Source: an uncultured bacterium (GTDB lineage: Bacteria; UBP6; UBA1177). Taken from it: a DNA stretch of 64,000 nt. The stretch is from positions 11,320 to 75,319 of the forward strand of contig CAJOFY010000020.1 of the NCBI GenBank assembly GCA_905233945.1, given 5' to 3'. Each line of letters starts with the position of its first letter. Positions within the stretch are counted from its first letter, which is position 1. Positions 46,501 to 64,000 of the stretch are shown here, in pieces. Position numbers and translations under genes: made by a program. The notes beneath the pieces are model-generated. The model had not been told where the DNA came from. It saw nothing but the letters and a program-made list of their open reading frames with translations, and searched no databases.

Positions 46501-46522
46501 CACTCTGACGGAGTAGGTTTCT

Positions 46523-48969: not shown

Positions 48970-50063
48970 ATATGTGGGATTTTATTTTAAAGCTCCGGAA
49001 TAAGGAATGTCCTGACGATATGAATGAAATGCTGAACTTTTGGACGGAAGCACTCTGCAAGGACAAGAACATCCGCGGATGGTTCCGCAATGCAGTTCAA
49101 TTAAAAGAGGATTATGTCAGGGCAGCTGTAATCGATGTTATGATATCGGCAGGGAAAAAAGAGGACGAGAATGAAAAAAACAAGGACCGTTTTAGATCGT
49201 TCATAGAACAACATATTGATACAGAAGATGAGGCGGCGCGGGAAGAGAAAATAAAAAGCGATTTTTATAAAGCGGTCTACAACAAGGTTTGGGGGATGGT
49301 ATTTGTAAGAAAAAAGGGTGATCCGAGTGAAGAATCAGAAGAATCAGAAAAACAATGTGAATATAAAGAGCCGGCCTTGAATGCAGTCTCTATAGATTAC
49401 ACTCCTGACGAGAATGAAAAAAATATGGAACAGAAACACAAAGAACTTCAAGAGATGGGTTTTGAGGATAAATTCTCCTGCGATCAGATTATGGAGCTTG
49501 TTGACACGGAAATCTTTGATAAAGTTGTGGATTTTATTGAGAAAAAAGACGCATGGGGGCATTATTCCAAGTTTAAGGATAAAAAATTCCCCATTTATTT
49601 TCACAATCCCAAGTTTGTGGACATCAAAACATGCAATGACATTGACAAGCTGTCGTGGACGAAAAATGTCATGAAAAATCTTTGTCTGGATGACGAAGGA
49701 AAATATGCCAAGGATTTCATTCTTTTTATGCCGTGGGAAAAATATCCTGTAAAAAGCGGAGGGAAATATACATCGGAAGAATATATAGAGTATATGAAAT
49801 CCCAATATATAAAATCCCGTATAGAAGAAAAATTTGAAGAGCTGAATCTGAACGATTCAACGATAAGCGATCATCTAAGAGGGGAACAAGGTGTGGAAAA
49901 AGAGTTCCACCGCCTTCTTGACGAGAAAAAGCTGACAAGCAAAGATATTCATGCTTATTGCTATAAAGAGTTTGAAGATATAATCAGGGAAAATTTTAAG
50001 GAAAGGATGCCTGATATAATTGATTTGGAAGATTTGGAAGAAGATTCGGAATTTTCCGATTAG
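48966..50063 (+). CDS. Uncharacterised protein B (cas-linked), acidic C-terminal tail
   Basis: 365 aa; Lys/Glu-rich, ends EDLEEDSEFSD; translationally coupled to gene A. Confidence 0.5.
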   Translation: MNMWDFILKLRNKECPDDMNEMLNFWTEALCKDKNIRGWFRNAVQLKEDYVRAAVIDVMISAGKKEDENEKNKDRFRSFIEQHIDTEDEAAREEKIKSDFYKAVYNKVWGMVFVRKKGDPSEESEESEKQCEYKEPALNAVSIDYTPDENEKNMEQKHKELQEMGFEDKFSCDQIMELVDTEIFDKVVDFIEKKDAWGHYSKFKDKKFPIYFHNPKFVDIKTCNDIDKLSWTKNVMKNLCLDDEGKYAKDFILFMPWEKYPVKSGGKYTSEEYIEYMKSQYIKSRIEEKFEELNLNDSTISDHLRGEQGVEKEFHRLLDEKKLTSKDIHAYCYKEFEDIIRENFKERMPDIIDLEDLEEDSEFSD

Positions 50064-50116
50064 TTCCACTTTAGGGAAATGTAGAGATGATATTTTTGTG
50101 CTGTTGGAGATAAATA

Positions 50117-51289
50117 ATGAACAAATTCGCAAACAAAGAAAGAATCAAAAAAATTGCTGAAACTTATGCAAGAGAAATGTATCTGTGGGGCGATCCTTTT
50201 GAGGCGCCCAGTGTTCCGCCGGAAGATGTTATCAGGAAATTCATGAAGAACCCGGAAGAGCTGGAACCTGATCTTGTCCGCCAGATAGAGACTGATATAA
50301 ACTGCGGAGCCGCTGTTAAAAAACTTGAAATTTGTGATGCTGATCCGGCACTCGAAGAAAATATTCAGATCTCCGGAGAGGAAATACGCAAGGCGCTTGA
50401 ATCGATGAAACATCCTGAAACTAAAATGGATTTTCCTTGCAAGGGCGGTGTTTTCTATACAAAAAGCAAACTCAAGGTGTTTGATGATGCAAAAGGAAAA
50501 AACTATAACATTTATACTTTCCTTCCTCAGGCTGTTCTGCTTCTTAGTGACGAAAAAAGAAAATCGTGCGGAACGAGACTCTTCAGGTGCGCAGTTGTAA
50601 CACCCGATTTCGCGGGTGGAGCCGTTGACGGTCAGGATATGGACCTTGGAAACGGCTGGATTCTCCACAAATGGCTGTGTTTTCCTGTAAGTTTCGAGCA
50701 GCTTGACTGTGAAAGAAAAATGGCTGATGTAGAAAACATTGATAAAATCGCCGAAGAGGTCAACAACTATTTCTTTTCTGAACACGAAATGACGTGCTAC
50801 GGCAGGAAAGAACAGAGACTCTCGGCGATGTCGGATTATGTTCCGGCTATGGCTGATGCCGATGTGGCAAGAGCTGAATGGCAGGCGGAACACTCCGTAT
50901 CTTTCGACACTATACAGGCTTATACAAAAGAATCTTTCAGGAAAGCTGCTGATACCGACGAGGATGTCAGCCGACTTGTTGTCAGAAGAGGTGAAAACGC
51001 CGTTGCGAAATCTTTTGAAGCGGAACTTGATGTAATAATTGATATCAATGCCGACAACTGTGATAGAATTGTAAAAGAGAAGGCATTTCCGACATGGACT
51101 ATTGATAAAGATGCAAATATTCCGGATGGAACTGTTTTCCTGCTGCGGGATGTCAGAAACGGAAACACGATCGGTTCAGGAGAAATAAGTCGCGGCGTGG
51201 CATGGCTCGAGCGTCTTGTTCCGGAGGCTGTTACGATTTCCGTAACTGACGCATCACAAGTAGTTCTGGAGGTTTATCTTCCATGTTAG
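50117..51289 (+). CDS. Uncharacterised protein C (cas-linked)
   Basis: 390 aa; no recognisable motif; overlaps gene D start by 7 nt. Confidence 0.5.
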   Translation: MNKFANKERIKKIAETYAREMYLWGDPFEAPSVPPEDVIRKFMKNPEELEPDLVRQIETDINCGAAVKKLEICDADPALEENIQISGEEIRKALESMKHPETKMDFPCKGGVFYTKSKLKVFDDAKGKNYNIYTFLPQAVLLLSDEKRKSCGTRLFRCAVVTPDFAGGAVDGQDMDLGNGWILHKWLCFPVSFEQLDCERKMADVENIDKIAEEVNNYFFSEHEMTCYGRKEQRLSAMSDYVPAMADADVARAEWQAEHSVSFDTIQAYTKESFRKAADTDEDVSRLVVRRGENAVAKSFEAELDVIIDINADNCDRIVKEKAFPTWTIDKDANIPDGTVFLLRDVRNGNTIGSGEISRGVAWLERLVPEAVTISVTDASQVVLEVYLPC

Positions 51290-52641
51290 TAAAAATTTTT
51301 GATTCCGCTCATACTGGAATGAGCCGAAGTCAGTTTCTTCGTTTTTTTTTCAAAGATTTCCCTTATGAAGCAAAAGACTTTGAATCGACAAATTTCGAAG
51401 AATCACCCGAAAATCCTGAATTGCGCGACTTGTTTACAGATCTGGGTTCGCTTTCGCTTCTGATGATCAAAAACAAAGAAGAAAACGATGAAATCCGGAA
51501 ATTGAAGGCGTTTTTCAAAGATAAAATCCCTTTTCAGCCGTGTAATAAAACCAAATTTGAAGATCTAGACAAGCGGAGATTCTCCGCAGTGTTTTTCCCG
51601 ATAGAGACAGGAGCTGATCCTGAATGGGGAATGTGCGTCAGAAGTGATGCAGGCGACACTTTCTTCTTTGATTCAAAAGACTGCGAATGGAAATCCGGAT
51701 GGAGCGGTGACGGAGATTCATATAAACTCGCTGCGGCACTTGCGAAAGAACTTCTTGAATCGGATTTGCCGGAACGGGATGAACATATTTTCAAAGCTGC
51801 GCAGGACTGGATTGTCACAGGCAGCGTAGATGGAAAAGGGAAAGTCGGCAAAGTAGCTCTCGGCGGCAAACTAAGGCTCAGAACAAAAAAGAGTTTTATG
51901 ATTCCATTGGAAAATATTGCCACCCTTTCGGATGAAGAGAGAAAAAGGGATTTGTTTTCAGTAGATGAGATCTCGACGGCGATGAATCTGATTACAAGAA
52001 ACGGTGTGAAACCGCTTGTCGAGCGCGAATTTCCTCTGGAAGTTGATGAACTTCACATTCTTGTCGGTGCGGCTCTTGCTCCGCAGGTAGCTTCCGTCGT
52101 GCTTCTGAATGCAAAAAAAATTATACTCTGGCACTCGGAAAATTCCAAAGTAAATGCAGATGAAATGTGTGAAATCGCCCGAAAATTAAAGGGAATTGTC
52201 CCTGAAAAGCGCAAAATGTCGTCTTCATCCCTGCTTGATGCCGAAAAGGAACTCAAAAAGTATTTCGCTTACGGCAAGATTTCGCCTCAGGCACGGATTT
52301 TTTTCAATTTCACGAGCGGAAACAGACTCATGGCGATGGCAGTCCAGTCAGTGGCAAGACTTTATCACAATGTAGAGATGATTTACCGCGATATAGATGA
52401 AACCGACAAAAAAAAGGAGGCTGAAGAGAGCCGTCTTATGACATTCAATCTTCTGCAGTACAGCGAATTCCCCCCTCTTTACGGTAAAATATACGGAACT
52501 GTAAGGAGCGGACTTGATGTCAATTTTCTGCGGAACGGCAAAAGAGAAACTGCAAAGAACGTCAATTTTCAGCAGAACGAAGAAACTGAATATAAGGACG
52601 GAGAGGATTTTTTAAATAAACTGATAAAAAAGGAGAAGTGA
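51283..52641 (+). CDS. Uncharacterised protein D (cas-linked), possible Rossmann-like sensor domain in C-terminal half
   Basis: 452 aa; stop abuts the cas10 start (52641/52642); C-terminal region (ELHILVGAALAPQVASVVLLNAKKIILWHS) has a beta-alpha Rossmann-like pattern, but assignment to the CRISPR-associated Rossmann fold (CARF) is unproven. Confidence 0.45.
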   Translation: MLVKIFDSAHTGMSRSQFLRFFFKDFPYEAKDFESTNFEESPENPELRDLFTDLGSLSLLMIKNKEENDEIRKLKAFFKDKIPFQPCNKTKFEDLDKRRFSAVFFPIETGADPEWGMCVRSDAGDTFFFDSKDCEWKSGWSGDGDSYKLAAALAKELLESDLPERDEHIFKAAQDWIVTGSVDGKGKVGKVALGGKLRLRTKKSFMIPLENIATLSDEERKRDLFSVDEISTAMNLITRNGVKPLVEREFPLEVDELHILVGAALAPQVASVVLLNAKKIILWHSENSKVNADEMCEIARKLKGIVPEKRKMSSSSLLDAEKELKKYFAYGKISPQARIFFNFTSGNRLMAMAVQSVARLYHNVEMIYRDIDETDKKKEAEESRLMTFNLLQYSEFPPLYGKIYGTVRSGLDVNFLRNGKRETAKNVNFQQNEETEYKDGEDFLNKLIKKEK

Positions 52642-54279
52642 ATGGCAACTTACGTTTACGGCGGAAAATTCCAGGGAATCCAAAGCTACATTTTTTCAAC
52701 GAACAGACTGAGGGAGAACATCGGTGCAAGCGAACTGCTGAACGAAATATGTACCGAAGATTTTCTTAAAGAAAAACTTACTTCTTTCGAAATCAAAGGT
52801 GATTACGAAATTGTGCAGAAAGCGGCAAGTACAATTAAAATCGTTTTCCGAGAACAAGACGATGCTAAAAAAATGAAACAGGAATTTCCCAAGGTCGCAC
52901 GTGACTTGGTTCCTGGAATAGAGTTTTCACAGACTTATATTGAGCAGAAAAGTGATGATCTGAAAAACATAGACAAAGAAGTCAGAGATAGTTTAGAAGA
53001 GGAACTGAATAAGGAAAAAAACCGTCCTGCAACACTTTATTATCCTAATCTGATGATCGTAAAAAGGGATAACCGCACAGGACTGCCGGTTCGCGCTGAA
53101 AAAAAATACAGAATAAATTATATCGATGATGATGGAAAACAAAAAGAGAAACCTGCAGATGAATCGACATACAAAAAAGATTCCAAAGCAAATGATGCTC
53201 ACCCGAAACTTGTGGAAAAACTTATCGGAGAAGGACGGGGCCAACTGATGCCTGTTGAAATTGAACGAATTTCAAATTCAAACAGTTTTATTGCTGTTGT
53301 TCACGCTGACGGAAACGGACTCGGTCAGATAATAAGCAATTTGGGAAAGAATGTTAATTCAAAATTGTTTTCCGAGACACTTGACGACTGTCTCGTCGGG
53401 GCAGCCGGAGATGCCTTCAGAGAAATAATAGAGAATAAATACAATGGTGACAAAAAAAATTATTATCCGTTCCGTCCGATGGTGCTTGGCGGAGACGACT
53501 TTAATTTTATCTGCAAGGCGGATGATGCCGTTGAGTTCACAAAGAAATTTATAACGCTGGTCGAGAAATATACCGAAACAAAGTTTGAACCTCTTTTTGG
53601 AGATACAAACGAACAAAATAAAAAAGTGTCAAAAATGACGGTTTGTGCCGGAATAGCTTTTGTTAAAGAGAATTATCCGCTGCATTTTGCCTACGAACTG
53701 GCGGAATCGCTGTGTGATCTTGCAAAGGACAAAGCAAAGGATCTGCGAAAGCAGGAAGTGGAAAGATTAAAAAAAGAAAATGCTGAAGCAAATAAAGATG
53801 CGATAAAGAAGGTTCTGATTCCTTCCTGTATCGCTTTCAGAAAGGAATTGGGCAGTTTTGCTGAGGATTTCGATAATATAAAAGAAAAGGACAAGAAATT
53901 TATTTTCGGACCTTATGCGGTTTCCGACAGCGGATACAAACTTCCTCAGATTGACAGTCTGGTTAAAGTTGCGGAAGTTTTGAAAGACAACAATCCTTTC
54001 AAATCGTTCCTCAGAAACTGGATGAGCGATGAACTGGTCAATCCGCATTCGGCTCAGCTTTTAAAAAAACGTTTCATGCAGGTCGCAAATGAGAAAAACG
54101 GTGGAGCATACGCAAAATTCTGCAATGCGTTGAATGAACTTGTTCCACAGGCAAACGCAGAAGACCTTACGCTTGAAAAGGACGGTGTTTCACCTGTTCT
54201 CGATATTCTGACTCTTATTTCCATTGCGGAAAAAACAGACCCGGACAGTAAGAAAGGAGGAGAAAATGATAACAATTAA
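52642..54279 (+). CDS. cas10: Cas10 (type III large subunit) lacking HD domain, cyclase GGDD motif intact
   Basis: N-terminus starts directly with palm-1 signature (YVYGGKFQGIQSYIFS..LRENIGAS, compare Cas10 GDxSGIQxFIF..LRGRS); palm-2 DxD (AVVHADGNGLG) and RPMVLGGDDFNF; no HD motif, no treble-clef CxxC pairs. Confidence 0.7.
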   Translation: MATYVYGGKFQGIQSYIFSTNRLRENIGASELLNEICTEDFLKEKLTSFEIKGDYEIVQKAASTIKIVFREQDDAKKMKQEFPKVARDLVPGIEFSQTYIEQKSDDLKNIDKEVRDSLEEELNKEKNRPATLYYPNLMIVKRDNRTGLPVRAEKKYRINYIDDDGKQKEKPADESTYKKDSKANDAHPKLVEKLIGEGRGQLMPVEIERISNSNSFIAVVHADGNGLGQIISNLGKNVNSKLFSETLDDCLVGAAGDAFREIIENKYNGDKKNYYPFRPMVLGGDDFNFICKADDAVEFTKKFITLVEKYTETKFEPLFGDTNEQNKKVSKMTVCAGIAFVKENYPLHFAYELAESLCDLAKDKAKDLRKQEVERLKKENAEANKDAIKKVLIPSCIAFRKELGSFAEDFDNIKEKDKKFIFGPYAVSDSGYKLPQIDSLVKVAEVLKDNNPFKSFLRNWMSDELVNPHSAQLLKKRFMQVANEKNGGAYAKFCNALNELVPQANAEDLTLEKDGVSPVLDILTLISIAEKTDPDSKKGGENDNN

Positions 54280-54799
54280 CTATAAAATCGAATTTTTTAC
54301 CGACTGGAACTGTTCCAGCGGTCTCACAGGAAACGCCGATATCGATATCGCGGCTCTGCGTGACAATGACGGATTTCCGTATGTTCCCGGCAAAACGGTA
54401 AAAGGACTTTTGAGAGATGCGGCAAGAAATCTGGGTGAAACCAGTGAAGAAAAAATTTTCGGTTCTCCAAACGAGAAAGTTGACGAAACCGAAATAGAAA
54501 AAGCATACTTCTCAAATGCCGAACTTAATGAAAATGTCCGGAAAGCATTGAAATACGACAATGAGAAAAAAGCGTGCCTTTTCCGCGAAATTGCATCTAC
54601 CGCCATTGGTTCTGACGGGGTGGCAAAAGACAATTCGCTCAGAAAAGTCGAAGTTGCTATTCCTCTTACACTTTTCGGCACAATCGAATGTGAGGAAATG
54701 CACAAAGATACGATTTCGAGATGCATGAAGTTCATAAAAAGGCTCGGTATGGAGAGAAACCGCGGTCTTGGAAGATGTGAAATGTCGGAGGTGAAATAA
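54266..54799 (+). CDS. cas7: Minimal Cas7 (Csm3-like RAMP)
   Basis: AGGAGG RBS; RAMP motifs SSGLTGNADIDI...DGFPYVPGKTVKGLLR and C-terminal Gly-rich loop GMERNRGLGRCE. Confidence 0.65.
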   Translation: MITINYKIEFFTDWNCSSGLTGNADIDIAALRDNDGFPYVPGKTVKGLLRDAARNLGETSEEKIFGSPNEKVDETEIEKAYFSNAELNENVRKALKYDNEKKACLFREIASTAIGSDGVAKDNSLRKVEVAIPLTLFGTIECEEMHKDTISRCMKFIKRLGMERNRGLGRCEMSEVK

Positions 54800-56331
54800 T
54801 GAGATACTGTTACAAAGTCACGCTTCTTGCCGATGTCGTAATGAGTTCGCTCAGCTCGACCGAAGTATCGGAATCGCTTGATTATCTCAGCGGTTCTGCA
54901 TTTATGGGGATCGCGGCAAATTATCTTTTCACAGAAAACAGAAAAAACGGAAAAAATTATGATGTTTTTGACGCTGTTTTTTCAGGGAAAATCCGTTTTC
55001 TGGATGCCCATCCGCTGATTGACGGTAAAAGAAGTTTCAAGATCCCGCTCTGCCTCCACAAACCGAAAGTAAAGGGCGCTGCGAAAAAATACCGTTTTGA
55101 AGGAAAACCGCTGGAGGAAGGTGAAAACAAGATCCAGATGAAGCAGGTACGCAAGGGTTTCTTCATCGCAGACGGCGGAACCTGGACAAAAGTCGAACCG
55201 GAACACCAGTACACGATGAAATCTTCATACGACAGCGAAACAAGACGTGCCCAGGACAACGCTCTTTTCGGCTACGACGCTCTTGTAAAAGGAAGCGAGT
55301 GGGTTTTTGTCATGGAATTCGACGATGAAAAGAAGGATATCGCCGAAGAACTTAATAAATTTTTCATTTCAAAAAACCACAGGATCGGAAAATCGAAGAC
55401 CAGCCAGTACGGAAATGTGGAAATCAAAAGAGACGATTCTCTTCTTTCTGACTGCGGGACCTATGAGGCGACAGAAAACAAATACAAAGTCTATGCCGAT
55501 TCGCGCCTCTGCTTCTTTGATGAAAACGGTCAGCCGACATTCCAGCCGACACCTGAGCAGCTCGGTTTCAAAGACGGAGAAATCCTCTGGAACGAAAGTT
55601 TTGTTAGAAAATATGTCTTTACTCCGAGAAACGCGACAAGAAACGCTTACGACGGCGATATCGCCTGCATAGACAAAGGAAGCGTGTTTACTGTCAAGTC
55701 CGAGACAGGTCACAACGGAAGAAAAGTTGTCGGTGAATATCAGTCGATAGGTCTCGGGCAGATAATCGTAAATCCGGAATTTCTGAAAGAACATCCGGAG
55801 CATTTGAAAGATGTTGATGAAAACGATACTAAACCGGCAGTTCAGTGCAACGGTCCTCTTGTTGCATGGCTTGAAAGTAAGCAGAAAGAGAAAGATGTGG
55901 AGCAGAAAATCGCTGAGCAGGTAAATGAGGCGCGTAAGCTTATTACATGGCTTGAAAGTAAGCAGAAAGAGAAAGATGTGGAGCAGAAAATCGCTGAAAA
56001 GGTGACTGCTGCTTTTGCAAGTATGCCGGTCGGCATTTCTCCGAGCCAGTGGGGAGTTTTGAGAGCAAAAGCAAGAATGGCACTTGTCGAACATACAGAT
56101 TGGGCAGACTTCGAATATGCCATTTTCTTGGCTGGAGATGCATATCTTAAAAAAGAGCGCCTGAATTCAAAATGGGGCACGGATAAAGTTAAAAAACTCC
56201 ACAGTGTTTGTAAGAATGTTTGCGGTAATTCAACTTGGAACGATATTCAGAAACTCCGCTTTTTTGAGCTTCTGTGTGCGGCAGCAGCAAAAGAAGCAGC
56301 CAAAAAAACAAAAGATAATGGAGGCAAATAA
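54799..56331 (+). CDS. cas5: Cas5-group RAMP (Csm4/Csx10-like) with C-terminal extension containing a 27-aa tandem repeat
   Basis: N-terminal YLSGSAFMGIAANYL (RAMP G-loop variant), Csm4-like HRIGKSKTSQYGNVEI; coupled start (ATAATGA) with upstream gene. Confidence 0.55.
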   Translation: MRYCYKVTLLADVVMSSLSSTEVSESLDYLSGSAFMGIAANYLFTENRKNGKNYDVFDAVFSGKIRFLDAHPLIDGKRSFKIPLCLHKPKVKGAAKKYRFEGKPLEEGENKIQMKQVRKGFFIADGGTWTKVEPEHQYTMKSSYDSETRRAQDNALFGYDALVKGSEWVFVMEFDDEKKDIAEELNKFFISKNHRIGKSKTSQYGNVEIKRDDSLLSDCGTYEATENKYKVYADSRLCFFDENGQPTFQPTPEQLGFKDGEILWNESFVRKYVFTPRNATRNAYDGDIACIDKGSVFTVKSETGHNGRKVVGEYQSIGLGQIIVNPEFLKEHPEHLKDVDENDTKPAVQCNGPLVAWLESKQKEKDVEQKIAEQVNEARKLITWLESKQKEKDVEQKIAEKVTAAFASMPVGISPSQWGVLRAKARMALVEHTDWADFEYAIFLAGDAYLKKERLNSKWGTDKVKKLHSVCKNVCGNSTWNDIQKLRFFELLCAAAAKEAAKKTKDNGGK

Positions 56332-57800
56332 TGAAGAAATATCTGGCAAGAATCATATTCGAGGCTGAAACACCGCTCCATGTCGGCAGCGGCAGTTCAG
56401 ACCTTACCCTTGATGCGCCCATAAACTGCGATGCGAACGGACTTCCTCAGATAAACGGATCAAGCCTCGCAGGAATTCTGAGAAGTTCTTTCAGTGACGA
56501 CGAAAAAATCAGAGAAAAAATTTTCGGTTTTCAGAAAAAAGCAGCAGAAGAAGAAGGAAAAGGTGAAGGTTCAAGGCTTGTTGTCAGCAATGCACACCTG
56601 ATTTATGAAGGCGGCAGAGTTGTAGAAGGCCTGATAACCAACGATGAAATAACAAAAAGCAAATATCTCAAAGCGATGCAGGCTTACGCTCTTCCTCTGC
56701 GCGATCACTGCAGGATAAATGAAAAAGGTGCTGCAAAAGATCAGGGAAAATTCGACAACTGCGTCCTTCCGAAAGGTGTCAGATTTGTATGCGAGCTTGA
56801 ACTGACTGAAAATGACAAAGATCTTTCCGCTGACTGGGAAAATCTGCTTCAAGTTGTTTCAAGCGATACTTTCAGGGTCGGCGGCAAAGTTAGAAGCGGT
56901 CTCGGAAGACTGAAAGTTCATGAATGTTTCGAAAAACCTTTTGATTTTCAAAATCCTGATGCTGTCAAAGAATATCTTGAACACTCTTCCTCATTCAATA
57001 AAAAAACTGCATGGAAAACTGAACTCAAATCAGGCGGAAAGTCAGATAAATATTTGTGCTACACTCTCGAGATCCAGCCGGAGGATTTCTTCACTTTCGG
57101 CAGCGGATACGGAGATGAAGAAGTCGATATGACTCCGAAAAAAGAGATCGTTGTTAAGTGGGACGGTGACACTCCTGACATCAGTGAAGCAAAAATCCTT
57201 ATTCCTGCTTCTTCGATCAAGGGGGCGATTTCACACAGGACCGCTTTCTACTACAACAAACTGACAGAAAATTATGCTGAAAAATTTAAAGGTGTTAAAG
57301 AAGAAGATAAGCCGGTCGGTCCAAAAAACGAAGCTGTAAGAGCTCTTTTCGGTTATGACAAGCAAAAAGAGGCTGAATTTAAAAAGCCGGAAGTGCCTGC
57401 CGATAAGCAGGAGAAGGCTGAATCTGAAAAGCAGGAAACTCCCGCAGGCAAAGTGTTTTTTGACGACATGATAATTGAAGAAAATGCCGATGAGAAAGTT
57501 TTCAACCATGTTTCGATAGACAGATTCACAGGCGGTGCGATGAGCGGAGCTCTTTTTGACGAGAAAGTCTGCGGAACCAGCGTCGAAGTTGAACCTGATA
57601 AGTTCAAACCGCTGGAGATCGAACCTCTGAAGATTTATGTCAAAAAATCGGCTTTCGAAGGAAACGTCAATGTCAGAGAAGCTTTCGAAAATGCTCTTGA
57701 CGACATCTGCACCGGAATGCTTCCTCTCGGCGGCAGCACGATGCGCGGACACGGCTGTTTTACAGGAACTTTGAAAAAACCGGAGGATAACAATGAGTGA
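56331..57800 (+). CDS. cas7: Fused double-Cas7 RAMP (two Csm3/Csm5-like domains in one polypeptide)
   Basis: Domain 1: ETPLHVGSGSS...GLPQINGSSLAGILRS with G-loop VRSGLGRLKV; domain 2: ILIPASSIKGAISHRTAF with terminal G-loop LPLGGSTMRGHGCF. Confidence 0.6.
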   Translation: MKKYLARIIFEAETPLHVGSGSSDLTLDAPINCDANGLPQINGSSLAGILRSSFSDDEKIREKIFGFQKKAAEEEGKGEGSRLVVSNAHLIYEGGRVVEGLITNDEITKSKYLKAMQAYALPLRDHCRINEKGAAKDQGKFDNCVLPKGVRFVCELELTENDKDLSADWENLLQVVSSDTFRVGGKVRSGLGRLKVHECFEKPFDFQNPDAVKEYLEHSSSFNKKTAWKTELKSGGKSDKYLCYTLEIQPEDFFTFGSGYGDEEVDMTPKKEIVVKWDGDTPDISEAKILIPASSIKGAISHRTAFYYNKLTENYAEKFKGVKEEDKPVGPKNEAVRALFGYDKQKEAEFKKPEVPADKQEKAESEKQETPAGKVFFDDMIIEENADEKVFNHVSIDRFTGGAMSGALFDEKVCGTSVEVEPDKFKPLEIEPLKIYVKKSAFEGNVNVREAFENALDDICTGMLPLGGSTMRGHGCFTGTLKKPEDNNE

Positions 57801-58191
57801 AAATATTATAAAAAGAGAAATGGACCGCCAGCAGCTTAAAGAATTATGGAATGAACTGAAAGCTGAAGGGATGGACTGCGGCTACTACTGGCTTGACAAT
57901 GATGATCACCCGGAACTTTTTGAAAACGGAAATATGCCCGATTTTCCCGGCAACAGCCGTAACTTCATCGTCGAAAGCTGCTGGTACAAAAAGAACGAAA
58001 AGAGTGTCGAGATCCGTTTTGCAGGCGGAAAATACATCGTCACGACAGTTGATCTGACGAAAGAAAAACTTGAAATACCAAAAGAATACTTTGTCTCGAC
58101 GCAGAAAGAAGCGACAATCCTTTTCTCGGATATCATCAACGAAGAAGACGGTTCGATAAAAAAGATTGTTTTTGTTGGTTTCGGAAATTAG
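57793..58191 (+). CDS. Small uncharacterised cas-embedded protein (132 aa)
   Basis: Overlaps upstream stop; mixed alpha/beta, not obviously Cas11. Confidence 0.45.
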   Translation: MSENIIKREMDRQQLKELWNELKAEGMDCGYYWLDNDDHPELFENGNMPDFPGNSRNFIVESCWYKKNEKSVEIRFAGGKYIVTTVDLTKEKLEIPKEYFVSTQKEATILFSDIINEEDGSIKKIVFVGFGN

Positions 58192-58200
58192 GAGGCAGAA

Positions 58201-60537
58201 ATGGCATACGATAATGATCAGAACAGGAAAGGTTCAAATAGTTTCGGGAAAAATCCCACTATAAAATCACCGTATAATTTTGTACCTCTTTCAGAGACAG
58301 TCGTTTGCCCTGATTGGGCGGATGAAGTCAGCCATGACATTCCGTTTGAAGACGGCATCAGCGGAAAAATCGACCTCACAGTCACGCTTCAGAGCGATAC
58401 TTACATCAGAAACGGCGGGAATTGGAGTGAAGCAGATAAAAAAGACGACAAATCTAAATGCCAGAAATTCTTCACTGCAGCAGTAAACGGCGAAAAGAAA
58501 TACATTATTCCCGGAACATCGTTCAAAGGAATGATCCGCAATGTCCTTGAAATCGCAAGTTTCGGAAAGATGCAGAAAGTCAATGACGACAAGTATTCGA
58601 TAAGGGATCTGCATAACACAAGATATACCGGTGAACTGACTGAAAAAAGAGGCGGGATTATTTATCCTAAAACAAAGGCAGGATGGCTGTGTCTCGATGA
58701 AGGTTCCTATGAAGATGAAGGCGGAAGAAAGTGGCAGATAATTCCTTGTGATTATGCGAGGATAGAGCAGGAAGAACTTAGTCCTGATTTTGGCAGAAGA
58801 GGGACTAAAACACTCAAGGAAACTACTGAATTTAAGTATGAAAAATTCGGAGAAGACAAGCTCGAAGTAACTTTTCAACTCGATGAAAAAACAGAACATG
58901 ATGAGCATTCATGCGGAACAATATACTATAAAAAAGTAAAAAAAGACACTCTCAACAAGCCCGAGTCCGAGATGAAAGGAATTCTTGTTTTTACCGGCCA
59001 GCCAAGCAATCGAATTACTCAGGCAGAACGTAACAGCAATGAAAAACTAAAAAAACAACATCCTAAACACATGGAATTTGTTTTCTACGAATATGAAACT
59101 TCGAAAAAACCTCGATCTATTACAGCATCACAAAAAGAAAATTTCATATTTATAAATTCTGACAGCAATAAAAAACCTCTTCCGGAATGGGAATACTGGA
59201 CAAGAAATGAAGAACCGAAGGATAAAAATCTGAAAGAGAAAAAAGGTGACGGAGAATTGAAAGAGGGAAGAAAAGTCCCCGTTTTTTATCTCGAAGACAG
59301 CGAGGGAAATATAAAATCTTTCGGTCTTGCAATGATGTACAGACTGCCTTACGACAACTCTGTCGTGCAGACGATAGAACATACTTCAAGAGATCATTTT
59401 TCTTTTGATGCTTATAAAAAATACGAAAACAAGAACAAAGATAAAGACGATAAAAATAAAGACAAAGATGAATGGAAACCAGACTTGTCAGATCTCATAT
59501 TCGGTTACTCGAATAAGGAAAAATCCCTTAAAGGCAGAGTCCAGTTTTCGCATTTTATCAGTAAAGATAAGGTCGGAGAAATTGAGACTGTCGGTGAGAC
59601 GAAAACAACCGTTCTCGGAGGACCTAAAGCAAGTTATTATCCTAATTATCTGGAACAGCCGGATCTTAAAGCAGGATATAAACTGTTCTGGGATAAAGAT
59701 GCTAAAATCAGAGGTTGGAAGCGCTATCCTGCGCAGGGAATTGAAGCTTCATACCCGCCACCTCCTGAGATAAACGGAAAAGTGAATGAAGATGTTGCGA
59801 CAAAACTTATTCCGCTGAAAGCAGGTGCAGAATTTAAAGGTTCTGTCCGTTTCTTCAATCTTAAACATGAAGAACTCGGTGCTCTGCTCTGGGCTATTAC
59901 CTGGGATAAAGACAAGTACTGCCAGCACAATATCGGTATGGGAAAACCGCTCGGTCTCGGCAGAATCTCGATAGATATTACAGCACAAGTGATTACGGAA
60001 ACTTCAGAAACAATGGATGATTTCCTTGCAGAATTCAAGAAGTATATGAACGGTAAAGTTCCTAATTGGGAGAAGTCCGAACAGATAACAGAACTCAAGC
60101 GAATGGCGGACATCAGGTTCTGGAGTGACGAAGTAACGACATCTTATCCTATTCTTGATATGAACTGCAAACCTACCATCAACGAGTTTAATGATGCGAA
60201 AACAGCAATGGAAAAACTCGAGCGTTATTCTGAAATTGCAGACCGGCACGATGTCAAGGTAGAAACTCTGGAAGACAAGCTGAAAAAAGATGAAAAAAAG
60301 GCAAAAATTGCAGCAGCTTCCGAAGGTTTGGCTCCTGAACTCCAGAAAGTATTTGAATCACTGCGCAATTTAACGAAAGGCAAATTAAACAATAAGCTTA
60401 AAAACAATGAACTCACTGATAAAGGTAACGAACTCACCGAGAAAGAAGTCGCAGTGCTTAAAATTCAACCTCAGGATGCCTGGGAAAAATGGCAGTGGGA
60501 AGTTATAGATTCTCGTAGAAAAAATTGGGACAAATAA
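58201..60537 (+). CDS. cas7: Large Cas7-family RAMP (Csm5/Cmr6-like) with insertions and alpha-helical C-terminal tail (possible fused small subunit)
   Basis: GGAGG RBS; SPYNFVPL N-terminal motif, YIIPGTSFKGMIRNVLE, distal G-loop GMGKPLGLGRISI; final 180 aa Lys/Glu-rich helical. Confidence 0.6.
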   Translation: MAYDNDQNRKGSNSFGKNPTIKSPYNFVPLSETVVCPDWADEVSHDIPFEDGISGKIDLTVTLQSDTYIRNGGNWSEADKKDDKSKCQKFFTAAVNGEKKYIIPGTSFKGMIRNVLEIASFGKMQKVNDDKYSIRDLHNTRYTGELTEKRGGIIYPKTKAGWLCLDEGSYEDEGGRKWQIIPCDYARIEQEELSPDFGRRGTKTLKETTEFKYEKFGEDKLEVTFQLDEKTEHDEHSCGTIYYKKVKKDTLNKPESEMKGILVFTGQPSNRITQAERNSNEKLKKQHPKHMEFVFYEYETSKKPRSITASQKENFIFINSDSNKKPLPEWEYWTRNEEPKDKNLKEKKGDGELKEGRKVPVFYLEDSEGNIKSFGLAMMYRLPYDNSVVQTIEHTSRDHFSFDAYKKYENKNKDKDDKNKDKDEWKPDLSDLIFGYSNKEKSLKGRVQFSHFISKDKVGEIETVGETKTTVLGGPKASYYPNYLEQPDLKAGYKLFWDKDAKIRGWKRYPAQGIEASYPPPPEINGKVNEDVATKLIPLKAGAEFKGSVRFFNLKHEELGALLWAITWDKDKYCQHNIGMGKPLGLGRISIDITAQVITETSETMDDFLAEFKKYMNGKVPNWEKSEQITELKRMADIRFWSDEVTTSYPILDMNCKPTINEFNDAKTAMEKLERYSEIADRHDVKVETLEDKLKKDEKKAKIAAASEGLAPELQKVFESLRNLTKGKLNNKLKNNELTDKGNELTEKEVAVLKIQPQDAWEKWQWEVIDSRRKNWDK

Positions 60538-60539
60538 CT

Positions 60540-62312
60540 ATGACTCCGGCTTTCTATACTCTCAGAACTGCTTATTCCGCGCAGAAAAGAGGCGTGATCC
60601 TTCACGCTGTCCTGCAGGCGATAATGAAAGAGAGCTATATGGATGCTTTCCCCGGCATGGTCTGGAAAAATCTGGCTGTGCCGAACATTTTCTACCATGT
60701 CGAGGGAAGGCGTTTCAGCGATGTTCTGGAGGAAAAGGAGGTCTTTACTGTCTGCTACTTTTTCTGCGGAATTGACGAAGAAACAGTTGCAAAGTTCACC
60801 GATGCTCTGAAAAAGCGGATGGATGTGCCTGAAAACCAGCATTACTACAGGCTGGAAAAGGTGGCTCAGCCGGTTTTGAAAACGCTTGACGATCTTCGCA
60901 GAGAGTATGCCTTCATTCCTGAGAAGGGTGAGATCACGCTTGATCTATTGATGCCGCTTCCTTTCAACTCGGGCAAGGATACGGAAAAAACAGAGATCTC
61001 GAAAGAGCTCTTCAAAAAGCTGCTTTCGGGAAGGATGAAACGCCTTTTCGGCGATGATCTGCAGGGCGGGATCGATACCGATGCTTTCGAGATCACGACA
61101 GATTTAAGGCGCAAAACTCTGTGCACGCACCAAAAGAACGGCGTCTACGGGCAGAGGATACGCGGATGTATCGGCAAAATCACGCTAAAAGGCGATTTTT
61201 CATCTTTCCGTGATCTGCTGATCCTTGCGTGCGAACTGCACCTGGGGCCGGAACTTACGACTTCTCAGGGGTATTTCGTGCCGGAAAGAGGCGGAGAGCC
61301 TTCATCTGCGGATGATGATGAAACAGTGGCCGAACCTTACAAAAAGCCGCTCTACATCACGGCGATGAACTCTTTTCTCGGGGTGAGCGGAGGAACGATC
61401 GAGATTTACAGCGACCGAGAGCTGAAAAATTCATATCCGATGAACAGAATAGGCGAGGTCATCGTTCTGGAAAAGGCGATTTTCAGCACCGATTTTCTGA
61501 CGAAGTGCGCGGAACGCGGTATTCCGGTTTCGATTTCTCTCGGAAAATCGGCTGAATACGGCACGTTCACCAAGCCGGAAAAGAATCGCTACGAAGTTCT
61601 TAAAAGCCATATTCTGAAGTTTTCATCTCTTTCGGAAGAGGAAATCGTCAAAATTTCGAGAGATATAGCCGAAACGAAGACAAGAGCGTTCATAAGCATT
61701 TTCAAAAGAAGGTGGGAAAAAGGAACCGCAAGGATCCTGAAAAAGCTGGAAGCTGCGGCTGATTTGTTCGCAAAGGCTGAAACGATCGATGAAATACGCG
61801 GCTACGAAGGAATATCGAGCAGGCTGATATACGAGAAGATCCAGAATCTGATCCTGAATGAGGATTTCAGGTTCGAGAGGCGCGGCAGATACGAAAAAGA
61901 CTTTATGAACACGACTCTGAATTTCGTATATTCAAAGCTTTATCAAAGGGTCGTGCTTACGCTTAATGCGCTCGGACTGAATCCGTATCTGGGTTTCCTG
62001 CACAGTTCAAACGACCGCTACGAATCGCTTGCCTGTGACATTGAAGAGCTTTTCCGCGCACCGGTTTTCAACGCAGTAATCAATCTGATCAACCTGCAGC
62101 AGCTGAAAGCGTCCGATTTTGTTGAGACTGAAAAAGGAATCATTATCAAGCAAGGGGCGATCCGCACAATACTTGAGGTTTTTGAAAAAGAATTTCAAAA
62201 AATTAACCCGAAAAGCGGAAAAACGCTTGAATATGAGCTTTATAACCAGTGTGTGCTCATCAAAAACTGGGCACTCGGGAAATGTGAACTGAGCTGGTTC
62301 AGGTGGGAATGA
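60540..62312 (+). CDS. cas1: Cas6-Cas1 fusion protein
   Basis: N-terminal 260 aa with Cas6-like G-rich loop (ELHLGPELTTSQGYF); C-terminal Cas1 core (LYITAMNSFLGVSGGTIEIY ... RYESLACDIEELFRAPV). Confidence 0.65.
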   Translation: MTPAFYTLRTAYSAQKRGVILHAVLQAIMKESYMDAFPGMVWKNLAVPNIFYHVEGRRFSDVLEEKEVFTVCYFFCGIDEETVAKFTDALKKRMDVPENQHYYRLEKVAQPVLKTLDDLRREYAFIPEKGEITLDLLMPLPFNSGKDTEKTEISKELFKKLLSGRMKRLFGDDLQGGIDTDAFEITTDLRRKTLCTHQKNGVYGQRIRGCIGKITLKGDFSSFRDLLILACELHLGPELTTSQGYFVPERGGEPSSADDDETVAEPYKKPLYITAMNSFLGVSGGTIEIYSDRELKNSYPMNRIGEVIVLEKAIFSTDFLTKCAERGIPVSISLGKSAEYGTFTKPEKNRYEVLKSHILKFSSLSEEEIVKISRDIAETKTRAFISIFKRRWEKGTARILKKLEAAADLFAKAETIDEIRGYEGISSRLIYEKIQNLILNEDFRFERRGRYEKDFMNTTLNFVYSKLYQRVVLTLNALGLNPYLGFLHSSNDRYESLACDIEELFRAPVFNAVINLINLQQLKASDFVETEKGIIIKQGAIRTILEVFEKEFQKINPKSGKTLEYELYNQCVLIKNWALGKCELSWFRWE

Positions 62313-62596
62313 TGCCGAATACGGGAAATTATGTTTTCGCTTACGACATTTCGCTCACGAAAGAGCGGAACAAAGTTGATAAAGTTTTGAAGGAATACGG
62401 GTTTCGTATCCAGAAAAGTGTTTTTGAATGTGTTCTGACTGAAAATGACCGCGAAAAACTGCTGAACAGGCTGAATGAACTTGGGTTGAACAGCGGTTTC
62501 GTTAAGGTTTACAGGCAGGATTCCTATTTTAAGGCAAAAACTGTGGGACCTGCACCGGAAAAGCAGGATACCGGTTTTGCCTATTTCGCGGCTTAG
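62309..62596 (+). CDS. cas2: Cas2
   Basis: YVFAYDIS...RNKVDKVLKEYGFRIQKSVFEC Cas2 signature; ATGATG start overlapping cas1 stop. Confidence 0.8.
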   Translation: MMPNTGNYVFAYDISLTKERNKVDKVLKEYGFRIQKSVFECVLTENDREKLLNRLNELGLNSGFVKVYRQDSYFKAKTVGPAPEKQDTGFAYFAA

Positions 62597-62958: not shown

Positions 62959-63750
62959 TGTAACGAGTAGCAGAGTAGCTACTCTGGTTGAAACTGTTAG
63001 TGCACTGAATTGTTTTGCCATTTTGTGTAACGAGTAGCAGAGTAGCTACTCTGGTTGAAACAGGTGTCTTTCTGTATCCCCAATCTCACGCTCAAGTAAC
63101 GAGTAGCAGAGTAGCTACTCTGGTTGAAACTGTGTTCATTCTAAGTCTCCAAAATAAAAGTTACTGTAACGAGTAGCAGAGTAGCTACTCTGGTTGAAAC
63201 ATTCACCCATGCCTTACTGTCTCGAATTACTTCAGTAACGAGTAGCAGAGTAGCTACTCTGGTTGAAACTATATCTTCTTTATCTTTTAAAAGATAAAAA
63301 AGGTAACGAGTAGCAGAGTAGCTACTCTGGTTGAAACTCTTTCTCTTCTTCTTTGTCTTCTTTTTCATCAGGTAACGAGTAGCAGAGTAGCTACTCTGGT
63401 TGAAACCTTCTACAAGGCAGAATACCAGAAAATGTCCAAGTAACGAGTAGCAGAGTAGCTACTCTGGTTGAAACCCGTTAAGAAAACGTTTCATAATTTA
63501 CACCTTCGTAACGAGTAGCAGAGTAGCTACTCTGGTTGAAACTAATACTACCTTTTTTCTTTTCTTCTGTTACTTGTAACGAGTAGCAGAGTAGCTACTC
63601 TGGTTGAAACCAGAGTTTCCGCAACATTCTGATGACCCGCTGTAGTAACGAGTAGCAGAGTAGCTACTCTGGTTGAAACATCGTACCAGGCTGATACCTC
63701 TCCGATAATGCCCCTGTAACGAGTAGCAGAGTAGCTACTCTGGTTGAAAC
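62959..63750 (+). CRISPR. CRISPR array 1: 12 copies of 35-nt repeat GTAACGAGTAGCAGAGTAGCTACTCTGGTTGAAAC, spacers 32-36 nt
   Basis: Identical repeats with 67-71 nt period; repeat has internal 7-bp hairpin (GAGTAGC..GCTACTC) and 3' GTTGAAAC handle; AT-rich leader 62716-62958 on cas side. Confidence 0.95.
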
Positions 63751-63789: not shown

Positions 63790-64000
63790 GTTACATGAAG
63801 GCGGAACCTAGGCTCCGGTTGAAACTATGCTTCTTTATCATTCTTAATTTCAGTTATTTGTTACATGAAGGCGGAACCTAGGCTCCGGTTGAAACAGCCA
63901 GTCAGGTTTGATATCATCAGGCAGACTGCGTTACATGAAGGCGGAACCTAGGCTCCGGTTGAAACAAACAGTTGCCGTCGTAAGTCATATCACTGACAAG
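63790..64000 (+). CRISPR. CRISPR array 2 (truncated by window end): at least 3 copies of distinct 36-nt repeat GTTACATGAAGGCGGAACCTAGGCTCCGGTTGAAAC
   Basis: Three identical repeats with 70-nt period starting 39 nt after the last repeat of array 1; shares 5' GTWAC and 3' CYGGTTGAAAC with array-1 repeat. Confidence 0.85.

What the first reader, a model, noticed from the sequence alone, without database searches (positions are those of the whole stretch)
56331..57800. Two Cas7 (RAMP) domains fused in one 489-aa protein
There are two complete RAMP signatures in one ORF. The first is a PLHVGSG/INGSSLAGILR pair with its G-loop. The second is IPASSIKGAISHR with its own terminal G-loop. Backbone fusion of Cas7 subunits is the hallmark trend of III-D variants and Cas7-11 (III-E) effectors. 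Together with the other fused parts here (Cas7-helical tail, Cas6-Cas1), the locus looks like an intermediate of effector consolidation.
Basis: partly seen in the sequence, partly recalled or inferred. Interest (0 to 1): 0.55.

Follow-up and report, generated by a model that had tools for sequence, protein, structure and literature searches.

The report
Double-Cas7 (Cas7-2x) subunit, type III-D CRISPR
The gene really does encode two fused Cas7 RNA-cutting domains, but this is the already described "Cas7-2x" backbone subunit of type III-D CRISPR systems, found here in a common and already catalogued operon, so it is a correct but ordinary finding.

Summary
ORF 56331..57800 (+) encodes 489 aa with two complete Cas7/RAMP domains. 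Each half passes Pfam's RAMP threshold alone, the halves are homologous to each other (hhalign 95.9%), and a model of the second half alone hits only Cas7-family structures.

[quoted passage not shown] A 2023 PADLOC model, "Cas7_IIId", matches end to end (E=1e-142).

The asparates aligned with the proven catalytic D33 and D246 of Cas7-2x are D28 and D266. They are conserved in 76/80 and 79/80 homologs.

The operon is cas10 (GGDD, no HD match), cas7, cas5-cas11, cas7-2x, csx19, cas7-insertion, (cas6?)-cas1, cas2 and two CRISPR arrays. This gene order recurs in about 70 of 80 related loci from many phyla. At least 1,448 homologs and 358 species genomes carry the gene, and the exact protein is already in public metagenome assemblies.

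The only departure from Synechocystis III-Dv is that the first Cas7 is a separate gene rather than fused to Cas5-Cas11.

Verdict: new member of a known kind, low interest.

The parts
56331..57800 (+). cas7-2x: a 489-aa protein with two fused Cas7 (RAMP) domains
   Evidence: ORF. Pfam RAMPs, two stretches. PDB 8s9t_D Cas7-2x, E=9.7e-13, collinear. PADLOC Cas7_IIId PDLC02107 full length, E=1.2e-142. Foldseek top hit 8s9u_D, E=4e-27.
56331..56945 (+). Cas7 domain 1 (aa 1-205), equivalent to Cas7-2x.1 and to Cas7.2 of Cas7-11
   Evidence: Pfam RAMPs 73.2 bits alone, aa 10-195 covering profile positions 2-189 of 189. AF2 secondary-structure order. aa 123-218 align to DiCas7-11 residues 498-594.
56412..56414 (+). 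Codon for D28, the predicted catalytic Asp of domain 1
   Evidence: Aligns to D33 of 8s9t_D, which is the proven catalytic residue (PMC11026444). Asp in 76 of 80 homologs.
56946..57050 (+). Inter-domain linker (aa 206-240): one helix followed by a low-confidence loop
   Evidence: AF2 model: helix at 209-217, and the lowest pLDDT of this region in the 231-240 block.
57051..57776 (+). Cas7 domain 2 (aa 241-482), equivalent to Cas7-2x.2 and to Cas7.3 of Cas7-11. It carries lineage-specific K/E-rich loop insertions at aa 353-364 and 419-430.
   Evidence: Pfam RAMPs 51.2 bits alone. hhalign against the N-half, 95.9%. C-half-only model hits only Cas7-family chains. aa 369-478 align to Cas7-11 residues 717-818, E=1.7e-10. 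Insertions.
57126..57128 (+). Codon for D266, the predicted catalytic Asp of domain 2
   Evidence: Aligns to D246 of 8s9t_D (PMC11026444). Asp in 79 of 80 homologs. Pairs with D28 in the half-versus-half alignment.
52642..54279 (+). cas10 (545 aa) with GGDD at aa 283-286 and no match to an HD domain
   Evidence: 8s9t_C Cas10, E=7e-32. PADLOC Cas10d, E=4.8e-98. Pfam Cas10 palm2. GGDD motif.
54266..54799 (+). Stand-alone small cas7 (177 aa), equivalent to the N-terminal Cas7 of the Synechocystis Cas7-Cas5-Cas11 protein. The candidate catalytic Asp is D27.
   Evidence: PADLOC Cas7_IIId PDLC02110, E=4.8e-61. It also matches positions 4-188 of the fused Cas7-Cas5 model PDLC02091. The 177-aa gene call appears in a public assembly. 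The Asp position comes from my own motif alignment to domain 1.
54799..56331 (+). cas5(csx10)-cas11 fusion (510 aa), with an in-frame 81-bp tandem duplication in the Cas5-Cas11 linker region
   Evidence: 8s9t_A residues 254-462, E=3e-8. The family profile A3 hits 8s9t_A residues 253-684, E=6e-19. PADLOC Cas5_IIId PDLC02088 full length, E=2.6e-109. Duplication at 55867-55917 and 55948-55998, 50 of 51 nt identical.
57793..58191 (+). csx19-like small subunit (132 aa, TIGR04423 family)
   Evidence: NCBIfam TIGR04423, 46.6 bits against a cutoff of 40. Five PADLOC Csx19 models, E=1e-12 to 2e-8. No PDB sequence match, even with a profile.
58201..60537 (+). cas7-insertion (778 aa, TIGR03986 family), the fourth Cas7 domain, carrying a large insertion
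   Evidence: NCBIfam TIGR03986, 308.8 bits against a cutoff of 161. 8s9t_E and 9wxh_D. PADLOC PDLC02108, E=1.8e-146.
60525..62312 (+). cas1 with a ~270-aa N-terminal extension that may be Cas6
   Evidence: Pfam Cas1, E=1.2e-53 at aa 276-555. The N-terminal part gives only a sub-threshold Cas6 hit, PF10040, E=0.0034. No PDB hit.
62303..62596 (+). cas2 (97 aa)
   Evidence: ORF. Conserved after cas1 in L001, E=2e-48, and in L013. The Cas2 identity rests on position and size only and was not scanned against a family library.
62960..63750 (+). CRISPR array 1: 12 identical 35-nt repeats (GTAACGAGTAGCAGAGTAGCTACTCTGGTTGAAAC) with spacers of 32-36 nt
   Evidence: The repeat folds as a hairpin, -11.2 kcal/mol, z = -2.6.
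63790..64000 (+). CRISPR array 2: a different 36-nt repeat with the same 3' GGTTGAAAC. At least 3 copies, running off the window.
51283..52641 (+). CARF-domain accessory protein (452 aa), the candidate sensor or effector for the Cas10 signal
   Evidence: Pfam CARF_Card1, E=9e-4, below the cutoff. PADLOC CARF models down to E=1.5e-9 at aa 252-394. Conserved upstream of cas10 in L001.

Best explanation
The ORF encodes a Cas7-2x-type subunit: two Cas7 (Csm3-like RAMP) domains in one chain. It forms the middle of the crRNA-binding backbone of a type III-D effector complex.

By homology with the solved Synechocystis III-Dv complex, the complex would contain one copy each of Cas10, the small Cas7, Cas5-Cas11, Cas7-2x, Csx19 and Cas7-insertion. 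These would assemble on one crRNA of fixed length that carries an 8-nt 5' tag (GUUGAAAC) derived from the repeat. The four Cas7 domains (small Cas7, Cas7-2x.1, Cas7-2x.2 and Cas7-insertion) would line up along the guide, and each thumb would flip out every sixth nucleotide of the guide-target duplex. D28 (domain 1) and D266 (domain 2) would each position a metal ion and the scissile phosphate. Cas7-2x would then make two cuts 6 nt apart in the target RNA, and the small Cas7 (D27) would make a third. Target binding would also switch on the GGDD palm of Cas10 to produce a nucleotide second messenger, probably sensed by the adjacent CARF protein.

Shown here: the two-domain anatomy, the fold, the homology, conservation of both Asp residues, and the operon context.

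Inferred from homologs: stoichiometry, cleavage activity and signalling.
For: Sequence: 8s9t_D Cas7-2x is the best PDB match, in three collinear pieces spanning both domains. PADLOC Cas7_IIId PDLC02107 matches aa 2-485 against positions 4-423 of 426, E=1.2e-142.

Fold: the full-length AF2 model has pLDDT 83.8 and pTM 0.85. Its top Foldseek hits are 8s9u_D and 8s9t_D (E=4e-27, TMq 0.67, TMt 0.64), followed by about 40 Cas7-11 chains with TMq around 0.6. The C-half-only model hits only Cas7-family chains.

Internal homology: hhalign of the N-half against the C-half gives 95.9%, E=6e-9, with every motif pair aligned and D28 paired with D266.

Catalytic residues: D28 aligns with D33 and D266 with D246. 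D33A and D246A each abolish one cleavage site in Synechocystis (PMC11026444), and those residues correspond to D429 and D654 of Cas7-11 (bioRxiv 2022.06.13.496011). Asp is kept in 76/80 and 79/80 homologs.

Context: every other subunit of 8s9t except Csx19 has a sequence match to a gene in the operon, and Csx19 is matched by PADLOC and NCBIfam models. The gene order is conserved in about 70 of 80 loci. A CRISPR array lies directly downstream. Cas10 has GGDD, and III-Dv Cas10 makes cOA that activates Csx1 (PMC11026444).
Against: Identity to the only solved Cas7-2x is low, about 18-19% in the Foldseek alignments, so details such as thumb geometry and metal site are extrapolated.

The loops carrying D28 and the domain-2 thumb are modelled with low confidence: pLDDT about 71 for aa 21-30 and below 50 for aa 395-406. 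The C-half-only model is only moderate, with pLDDT 72.7 and TM 0.42-0.54 to Csm3.

The Csx19 assignment rests on HMMs only. There is no detectable sequence match to the Synechocystis Csx19 chain.

No activity, stoichiometry or crRNA length was measured here. The Cas10 product (cOA versus SAM-AMP, as in III-D2; PMC13294483) is not determined.
Confidence: 0.9

Rival explanations
1. It is a two-domain backbone subunit in which only one domain is an active ribonuclease. The other would be purely structural, like Cas7.1 and Cas7.4 of Cas7-11 or the Cas7-insertion site of III-Dv.
For: In related fused effectors not every Cas7 domain cleaves. Cas7-11 cuts with two of its four domains, and III-D2 cuts at a single site. 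The catalytic loops are the less confident parts of the model.
Against: Both aspartates are nearly invariant, D28 in 76/80 and D266 in 79/80 homologs. They align with the two residues that are each required for one cut in Synechocystis Cas7-2x.
Confidence: 0.07
2. The fusion is an artefact: a frameshift or assembly error has joined two adjacent single-domain cas7 genes, as in III-D1.
For: III-D1 operons carry separate adjacent cas7 genes, and metagenomic assemblies can contain frame errors.
Against: The same single ORF of about 435-507 aa accounts for all full-coverage hits among the 120 best of at least 1,448 homologs. It also appears in all 80 genome loci examined. The identical 489-aa protein occurs in at least two independent public assemblies. 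The inter-domain linker is part of a full-length curated HMM.
Confidence: 0.01
3. The second half is not a Cas7 but a Cas5/Csx10-like or other RAMP domain, which would make this a Cas7-Cas5-type fusion.
For: There is a faint NCBIfam hit to Csx10, TIGR02674, E=0.0045 at aa 163-199. Cas7-Cas5 fusions do exist in III-D.
Against: That faint hit lies in the first half and is far below threshold. The C-half passes Pfam RAMPs with a Csm3-like alignment and matches the PADLOC Csm3 model PDLC01339 at aa 288-475. It aligns motif for motif with the N-half. Its structural hits are Cas7 subunits only. A separate Cas5 gene lies immediately upstream.
Confidence: 0.02

Closest known systems
Cas7-2x of the Synechocystis sp. 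PCC 6803 type III-Dv effector (PDB 8s9t/8s9u/8s9v/8s9x chain D; Schwartz et al. 2024, PMC11026444)
   Same: Both have two Cas7 domains in one chain of about 500 aa. The match is collinear in sequence and the full-length fold agrees (TM 0.67). Both catalytic Asp positions are conserved. The gene sits in the same operon position, after cas5-cas11 and before csx19 and cas7-insertion. The partner Cas10 is of the same kind, GGDD-containing with no HD match.
   Different: Identity is only about 18-19%. Here the first Cas7 of the complex is a separate 177-aa gene rather than fused into a Cas7-Cas5-Cas11 protein. The Csx19-like protein belongs to the TIGR04423 family and has no detectable sequence match to the Synechocystis Csx19 chain. 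Domain 2 carries K/E-rich loop insertions.
Cas7-11 / gRAMP (type III-E), Cas7.2-Cas7.3 region
   Same: The two halves are collinear with Cas7.2 and Cas7.3. NCBIfam gRAMP matches aa 123-479 against model positions 504-836. PDB 7wah residues 498-594 and 717-818 also match. Foldseek gives TMq around 0.62. Those are the two catalytic domains, with D429 and D654.
   Different: Cas7-11 is a single polypeptide of about 1,600 aa with four Cas7 domains plus Cas11, and its loci lack Cas10 and Cas5. This protein scores 66.6 bits against a family cutoff of 700, and the locus keeps Cas10, Cas5 and Csx19.
Cas7x3 of type III-D2 (PDB 9wxh chain D; Mitsuda et al. 2026, PMC13294483)
   Same: It is also a multi-Cas7 fusion in a type III-D effector, regarded as part of the same consolidation series. 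There is weak sequence similarity, E=3.5e-4.
   Different: Cas7x3 fuses three Cas7 domains, including the insertion-bearing one, into 1,235 aa. Its loci lack Csx19 and Cas11, carry CorA and a toxin-antitoxin module, and signal with SAM-AMP. Here the insertion-bearing Cas7 is a separate gene, and the accessory gene encodes a CARF protein.
Csm3 / Cmr4 (single-domain Cas7 of types III-A and III-B)
   Same: Each half has the RAMP motifs, the G-rich loop and a Csm3-like fold with a catalytic Asp in the loop after strand 1.
   Different: Csm3 and Cmr4 are single-domain proteins present in several copies per complex, which allows variable crRNA length. Here two domains are covalently linked, implying a fixed stoichiometry.

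Membership tests
Cas7 / RAMP superfamily (each half separately) | Sequence profile match above the curated threshold (Pfam PF03787) | tested here: met
   The N-half scores 73.2 bits and the C-half 51.2 bits, against a cutoff of 22.1.
Cas7 / RAMP superfamily (each half separately) | RRM-like Cas7 fold | tested here: met
   The full-length model matches Cas7-2x over both domains, TM 0.67. With the C-half modelled alone, all 50 top hits are Cas7-family chains: Cas7-11, Csm3, Cascade Cas7, type VII Cas7 and 8s9u_D. The C-half model confidence is moderate, pLDDT 72.7.
Cas7 / RAMP superfamily (each half separately) | C-terminal glycine-rich loop | tested here: met
   GGKVRSGLG at aa 184-192 and LPLGGSTMRGHG at aa 464-475. 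G184, G190, G192, G467, G473 and G475 are invariant in 80 sequences.
Cas7-2x (double Cas7 of type III-Dv) | Two Cas7 domains in one polypeptide, homologous to and collinear with 8s9t_D | tested here: met
   phmmer E=9.7e-13 with three collinear pieces. Foldseek E=4e-27 over the full length.
Cas7-2x (double Cas7 of type III-Dv) | A catalytic Asp in each domain (D33 and D246 in Synechocystis) | tested here: met
   D28 and D266 align with them and are conserved in 76/80 and 79/80 homologs. Catalysis itself was not tested.
Cas7-2x (double Cas7 of type III-Dv) | One copy per effector complex, making two target RNA cuts 6 nt apart | not testable with these tools
   This needs purification, native mass spectrometry and cleavage assays.
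Type III-D CRISPR-Cas | Cas10 of the III-D clade together with the csx10-type Cas5 | tested here: met
   PADLOC Cas10d, E=4.8e-98, and Cas5_IIId, E=2.6e-109. 8s9t_C, E=7e-32. 8s9t_A Cas5 region.
Type III-D CRISPR-Cas | A csx19 gene (often present) | tested here: met
   Five PADLOC Csx19 models, E=1e-12 to 2e-8. TIGR04423 is above its cutoff.
Type III-Dv in the strict sense (Synechocystis architecture) | Triple fusion cas7-cas5-cas11 | tested here: not met
   Cas7 is a separate 177-aa gene at 54266..54799. The 510-aa protein aligns only to residues 253-684 of 8s9t_A. The fused form does occur in one relative, L055, as a 699-aa ORF.
Type III-Dv in the strict sense (Synechocystis architecture) | Insertion-bearing terminal Cas7 (TIGR03986) | tested here: met
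   308.8 bits against a cutoff of 161. 8s9t_E also matches.
Type III-E Cas7-11 (gRAMP) | A single polypeptide with four Cas7 domains plus Cas11, in a locus without Cas10 or Cas5 | tested here: not met
   66.6 bits against a cutoff of 700. There are only two domains, and Cas10 and Cas5 are present in the operon.
Type III-D2 Cas7x3 | Three fused Cas7 domains including the insertion domain, in a locus without csx19 or cas11 | tested here: not met
   There are two domains only. cas7-insertion and csx19 are separate genes.

The most novel reading that the evidence does not exclude
The operon may represent a distinct, very widespread and not separately named sub-architecture of type III-D: separate Cas7, Cas5-Cas11, Cas7-2x, Csx19, Cas7-insertion. 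It would sit one fusion step before Synechocystis III-Dv. If so, the Cas7-Cas7 and Cas5-Cas11 fusions would have been fixed first, and the Cas7-Cas5 link would have been added later and more than once, for example independently in the Prevotella locus L055. That would give an ordered series of fusion events from III-D1 to III-E.
Probability: 0.3. Interest if true: 0.3.

Novelty: new member of a known kind. Interest (0 to 1): 0.15.

Why it matters
The finding adds little. Double-Cas7 subunits of type III-D are structurally and biochemically characterised, their role as a stepping stone towards single-protein Cas7-11 effectors is published, and this clade already has a full-length HMM in PADLOC-DB.

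Its modest value has two parts. First, it shows that the partly fused architecture, with Cas7 separate from Cas5-Cas11, is the dominant form across Bacteroidota, Campylobacterota, Desulfobacterota and other phyla, and that the Synechocystis triple fusion is rare among the 80 closest relatives (1 of 80 loci). Second, general annotation resources (Pfam, NCBIfam, RefSeq) still label these proteins only as generic RAMPs, so a dedicated family model would improve annotation.

Tried and rejected
- Csx19 by sequence: searching the PDB with the 132-aa protein and with a 40-sequence profile of its family found nothing. The Csx19 assignment therefore rests on PADLOC and NCBIfam HMMs.
- Cas6 in the Cas1 N-terminus: only a sub-threshold Pfam hit and no PDB hit.
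- Cas11 in the tail of the 510-aa protein: Pfam on the tail alone gave only noise. Support comes only from the profile alignment running into residues 625-684 of 8s9t_A.
- CARF protein N-terminal domain: no Pfam or PDB match.
- Promoter and terminator scans of 48000-63000 were at background level and uninformative.
- The Makarova 2020 classification paper (PMC8905525) is not held. [quoted passage not shown]
- Artefactual fusion and a Cas5-like second half were both considered and rejected (see the rival explanations).
[quoted passage not shown] Collinear HMM and PDB alignments served as a proxy.
Full report
**Observation.** ORF 56331..57800 on the + strand runs from ATG to TGA and encodes 489 aa.
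- PLHVGSG at aa 15-21 and INGSSLAGILR at aa 41-51
- first G-loop GGKVRSGLG at aa 184-192
- IPASSIKGAISHR at aa 291-303
- second G-loop LPLGGSTMRGHG at aa 464-475

The second domain also has its own counterpart of the first motif, FGSGYGDEEVD at aa 256-266. The gene is tightly coupled to its neighbours. Its ATG overlaps the upstream stop (TAATG), its stop overlaps the downstream start (ATGAGTGA), and GGAGG precedes both starts.

**Are there really two Cas7 domains?** Four independent tests agree.
- Pfam RAMPs (PF03787) hits the whole protein at E=5.6e-34 in two stretches. Scanned separately, aa 1-232 score 73.2 bits and aa 233-489 score 51.2 bits, against a cutoff of 22.1.
- A profile-profile comparison of the N-halves and C-halves of 80 family members gives 95.9% probability and E=6e-9 over 173 columns. 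All four motif pairs are in register, and D28 is paired with D266.
- An AlphaFold2 model of the whole protein (pLDDT 83.8, pTM 0.85) shows the same order of strands and helices twice, joined by a short helix and a loop at aa 206-240.
- The second half modelled alone (pLDDT 72.7) returns only Cas7-family backbone subunits among its 50 best Foldseek hits: Cas7-11, Csm3 of several type III-A complexes, type I Cascade Cas7, type VII Cas7 and Cas7-2x.

The two halves are only 19% identical to each other, while the aligned family members are 39-96% identical to the window protein over the full length. So the fusion is old relative to the spread of the family and is not a recent tandem duplication.

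**What it is.** The best match among solved structures, by sequence and by fold, is chain D of 8s9t/8s9u, the "Cas7-2x" subunit of the Synechocystis sp. PCC 6803 type III-Dv effector.
- By sequence, phmmer gives E=9.7e-13 with three collinear pieces covering both domains.
- By fold, Foldseek gives E=4e-27, TMq 0.67 and TMt 0.64 over the full length.
- The next hits are about 40 Cas7-11 (type III-E) chains with TMq around 0.6. The first half aligns to DiCas7-11 residues 498-594 and the second half to residues 717-818.
- The NCBIfam and PADLOC gRAMP models align as one collinear stretch: aa 123-479 against positions 504-836, and aa 123-478 against positions 479-791.

The III-Dv papers state that Cas7-2x.1 D33 corresponds to Cas7.2 D429, and Cas7-2x.2 D246 to Cas7.3 D654. 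D33A and D246A each abolish one cleavage site (PMC11026444; bioRxiv 10.1101/2022.06.13.496011). In the window protein these positions are D28 and D266 (from the alignment). They are Asp in 76/80 and 79/80 homologs.

**Context.** The whole operon matches the III-Dv complex subunit by subunit.

| Window coordinates | Product | Key evidence |
|---|---|---|
| 52642..54279 | Cas10, GGDD at aa 283, no match to an HD domain | 8s9t_C E=7e-32; PADLOC Cas10d E=5e-98 |
| 54266..54799 | small Cas7, 177 aa | PADLOC Cas7_IIId E=5e-61 |
| 54799..56331 | Cas5(Csx10)-Cas11, 510 aa | family profile matches 8s9t_A residues 253-684, E=6e-19; PADLOC Cas5_IIId full length E=3e-109 |
| 56331..57800 | Cas7-2x, 489 aa | see above |
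| 57793..58191 | Csx19-like, 132 aa | TIGR04423 above its cutoff; five PADLOC Csx19 models |
| 58201..60537 | Cas7-insertion, 778 aa | TIGR03986, 309 bits; 8s9t_E |

Downstream lie cas1 with an N-terminal extension, cas2, and two CRISPR arrays. Upstream is a CARF-domain protein.

The one architectural difference from Synechocystis is that the first Cas7 is a separate gene rather than the N-terminal domain of a Cas7-Cas5-Cas11 protein.

**How common it is.** The protein search found at least 1,448 homologs. The 120 best are listed, and those covering the full query are about 435-507 aa long and 39-94% identical. In the species-representative genome collection, 358 stretches encode a relative. 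They come mainly from Bacteroidota (including Tannerella forsythia ATCC 43037 and Segatella copri), and also from Campylobacterota, Desulfobacterota, Cloacimonadota, Caldithrix and others. The nearest is a UBP6 metagenome-assembled genome at 69% identity, with full synteny including the accessory genes.

In the 80 loci retrieved, 67 show the order Cas10 > Cas7 > Cas5-Cas11 > Cas7-2x > (Csx19) > Cas7-insertion in full, three of them with cas10 split in two pieces. Most of the rest are shorter loci showing only part of that order. Only L055 (Prevotella) has Cas7 fused to Cas5, as a 699-aa ORF.

The exact 489-aa sequence is already in ENA and Logan metagenome assemblies. PADLOC-DB 2.0 (2023) has a 426-position model, "Cas7_IIId" PDLC02107, that this protein matches end to end at E=1.2e-142. 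It also has separate models for the fused Cas7-Cas5 form. RefSeq annotates plasmid-borne relatives only as "RAMP superfamily CRISPR-associated protein". Small genes lying between a RAMP gene and a TIGR03986 gene were already noted in 2013 (PMC3936711).

**Mechanism (inferred from homology).** The complex would contain one copy of each subunit on a fixed-length crRNA. The repeats end in GGTTGAAAC, so the usual type III 8-nt 5' tag would be GUUGAAAC. The array-1 repeat forms a hairpin just upstream of it, and the spacers are 32-36 nt. The four Cas7 domains would form the backbone. The two domains of this protein would occupy adjacent positions and cut the bound target RNA at two sites 6 nt apart, through D28 and D266. 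The small Cas7, with an Asp at the equivalent position (D27), would provide a third site. Target binding would activate the GGDD palm of Cas10. In Synechocystis this produces cOA that activates Csx1 (PMC11026444), and here the adjacent CARF protein is the likely receiver. None of this was measured.

**Comparison and novelty.** The literature divides III-D into three groups: III-D1 with separate Cas7 genes, III-Dv with Cas7-2x, and III-D2 with Cas7x3. It regards the series as leading to III-E (PMC13294483). The window protein meets every feature of Cas7-2x that could be tested. The locus meets four of the five III-Dv features and fails the triple fusion. It is not a Cas7-11 (66.6 bits against a cutoff of 700) and not a Cas7x3.

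The most novel reading still open is that this partly fused architecture is a distinct, dominant sub-variant that fixes the order of fusion events. I give that a probability of about 0.3, and modest interest even if true.

**Verdict.** Real feature, correctly read, a new member of a known kind. Interest 0.15.

Noticed in passing
window 62960-63750 and 63790-64000: Two adjacent CRISPR arrays have different repeats: a 35-nt repeat GTAACGAGTAGCAGAGTAGCTACTCTGGTTGAAAC in 12 copies, and a 36-nt repeat GTTACATGAAGGCGGAACCTAGGCTCCGGTTGAAAC in at least 3 copies, running off the window. Both share the 3' GGTTGAAAC that would give the same 8-nt crRNA tag. Only the first repeat folds into a clearly stable hairpin.
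   Followed up: partly
window 55867-55917 and 55948-55998 (inside the cas5-cas11 gene): There is an in-frame tandem duplication with an 81-bp period. Two 51-nt stretches are 50 of 51 nt identical and encode WLESKQKEKDVEQKIAE twice, in the region between the Cas5 and Cas11 parts. It looks like a recent duplication in a linker.
   Followed up: partly
window 60525-61349 (N-terminal ~275 aa of the 595-aa Cas1 protein): Cas1 carries a ~270-aa N-terminal extension that is conserved in the UBP6 relative L001. It gives only a sub-threshold Cas6 hit (PF10040, E=0.0034, 18.5 bits against a cutoff of 25) and no PDB sequence match. No other cas6 gene was seen in the operon, so this may be the crRNA-processing domain.
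   Followed up: partly
window 48966-52641: Three genes lie upstream of cas10 on the same strand, encoding proteins of 365 aa and 390 aa with no family match and a 452-aa protein. In the 452-aa protein only the C-terminal half (aa ~250-390) resembles CARF, and the N-terminal ~240 aa match nothing. The 390-aa and 452-aa genes are conserved and syntenic in L001, and a CARF452 relative lies near the operon in L009. They may be an uncharacterised signalling effector set.
   Followed up: partly
window 48000-64000 versus 40000-48000: The cas region has lower G+C (0.40-0.46) and a strong positive GC and AT skew compared with the flanking genes (G+C 0.46-0.49). This is consistent with a horizontally acquired island.
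   Followed up: no
L011 4812-7902 (Segatella copri extrachromosomal element) and L058 1910-3237: In these relatives cas10 is split into two pieces. In L011 the pieces are about 1.5 kb apart, suggesting an insertion or disruption of cas10 while the Cas7-2x backbone genes stay intact.
   Followed up: no
L002 1776-5836 (Sumerlaeota MAG): Two consecutive cas7-insertion (TIGR03986) genes follow cas7-2x and csx19, instead of one.
   Followed up: no
L047 (contig WAPZ01000148.1): A full-length Cas7-2x relative at 41% identity sits on a contig binned as a Heimdallarchaeota archaeon MAG. This could be horizontal transfer or a binning error.
   Followed up: no
window 57387-57422 and 57585-57620 (aa 353-364 and 419-430 of the protein): Domain 2 has two loop insertions that are absent from at least 70% of the 79 aligned homologs. 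One is a K/E-rich stretch that is modelled with low confidence.
   Followed up: no
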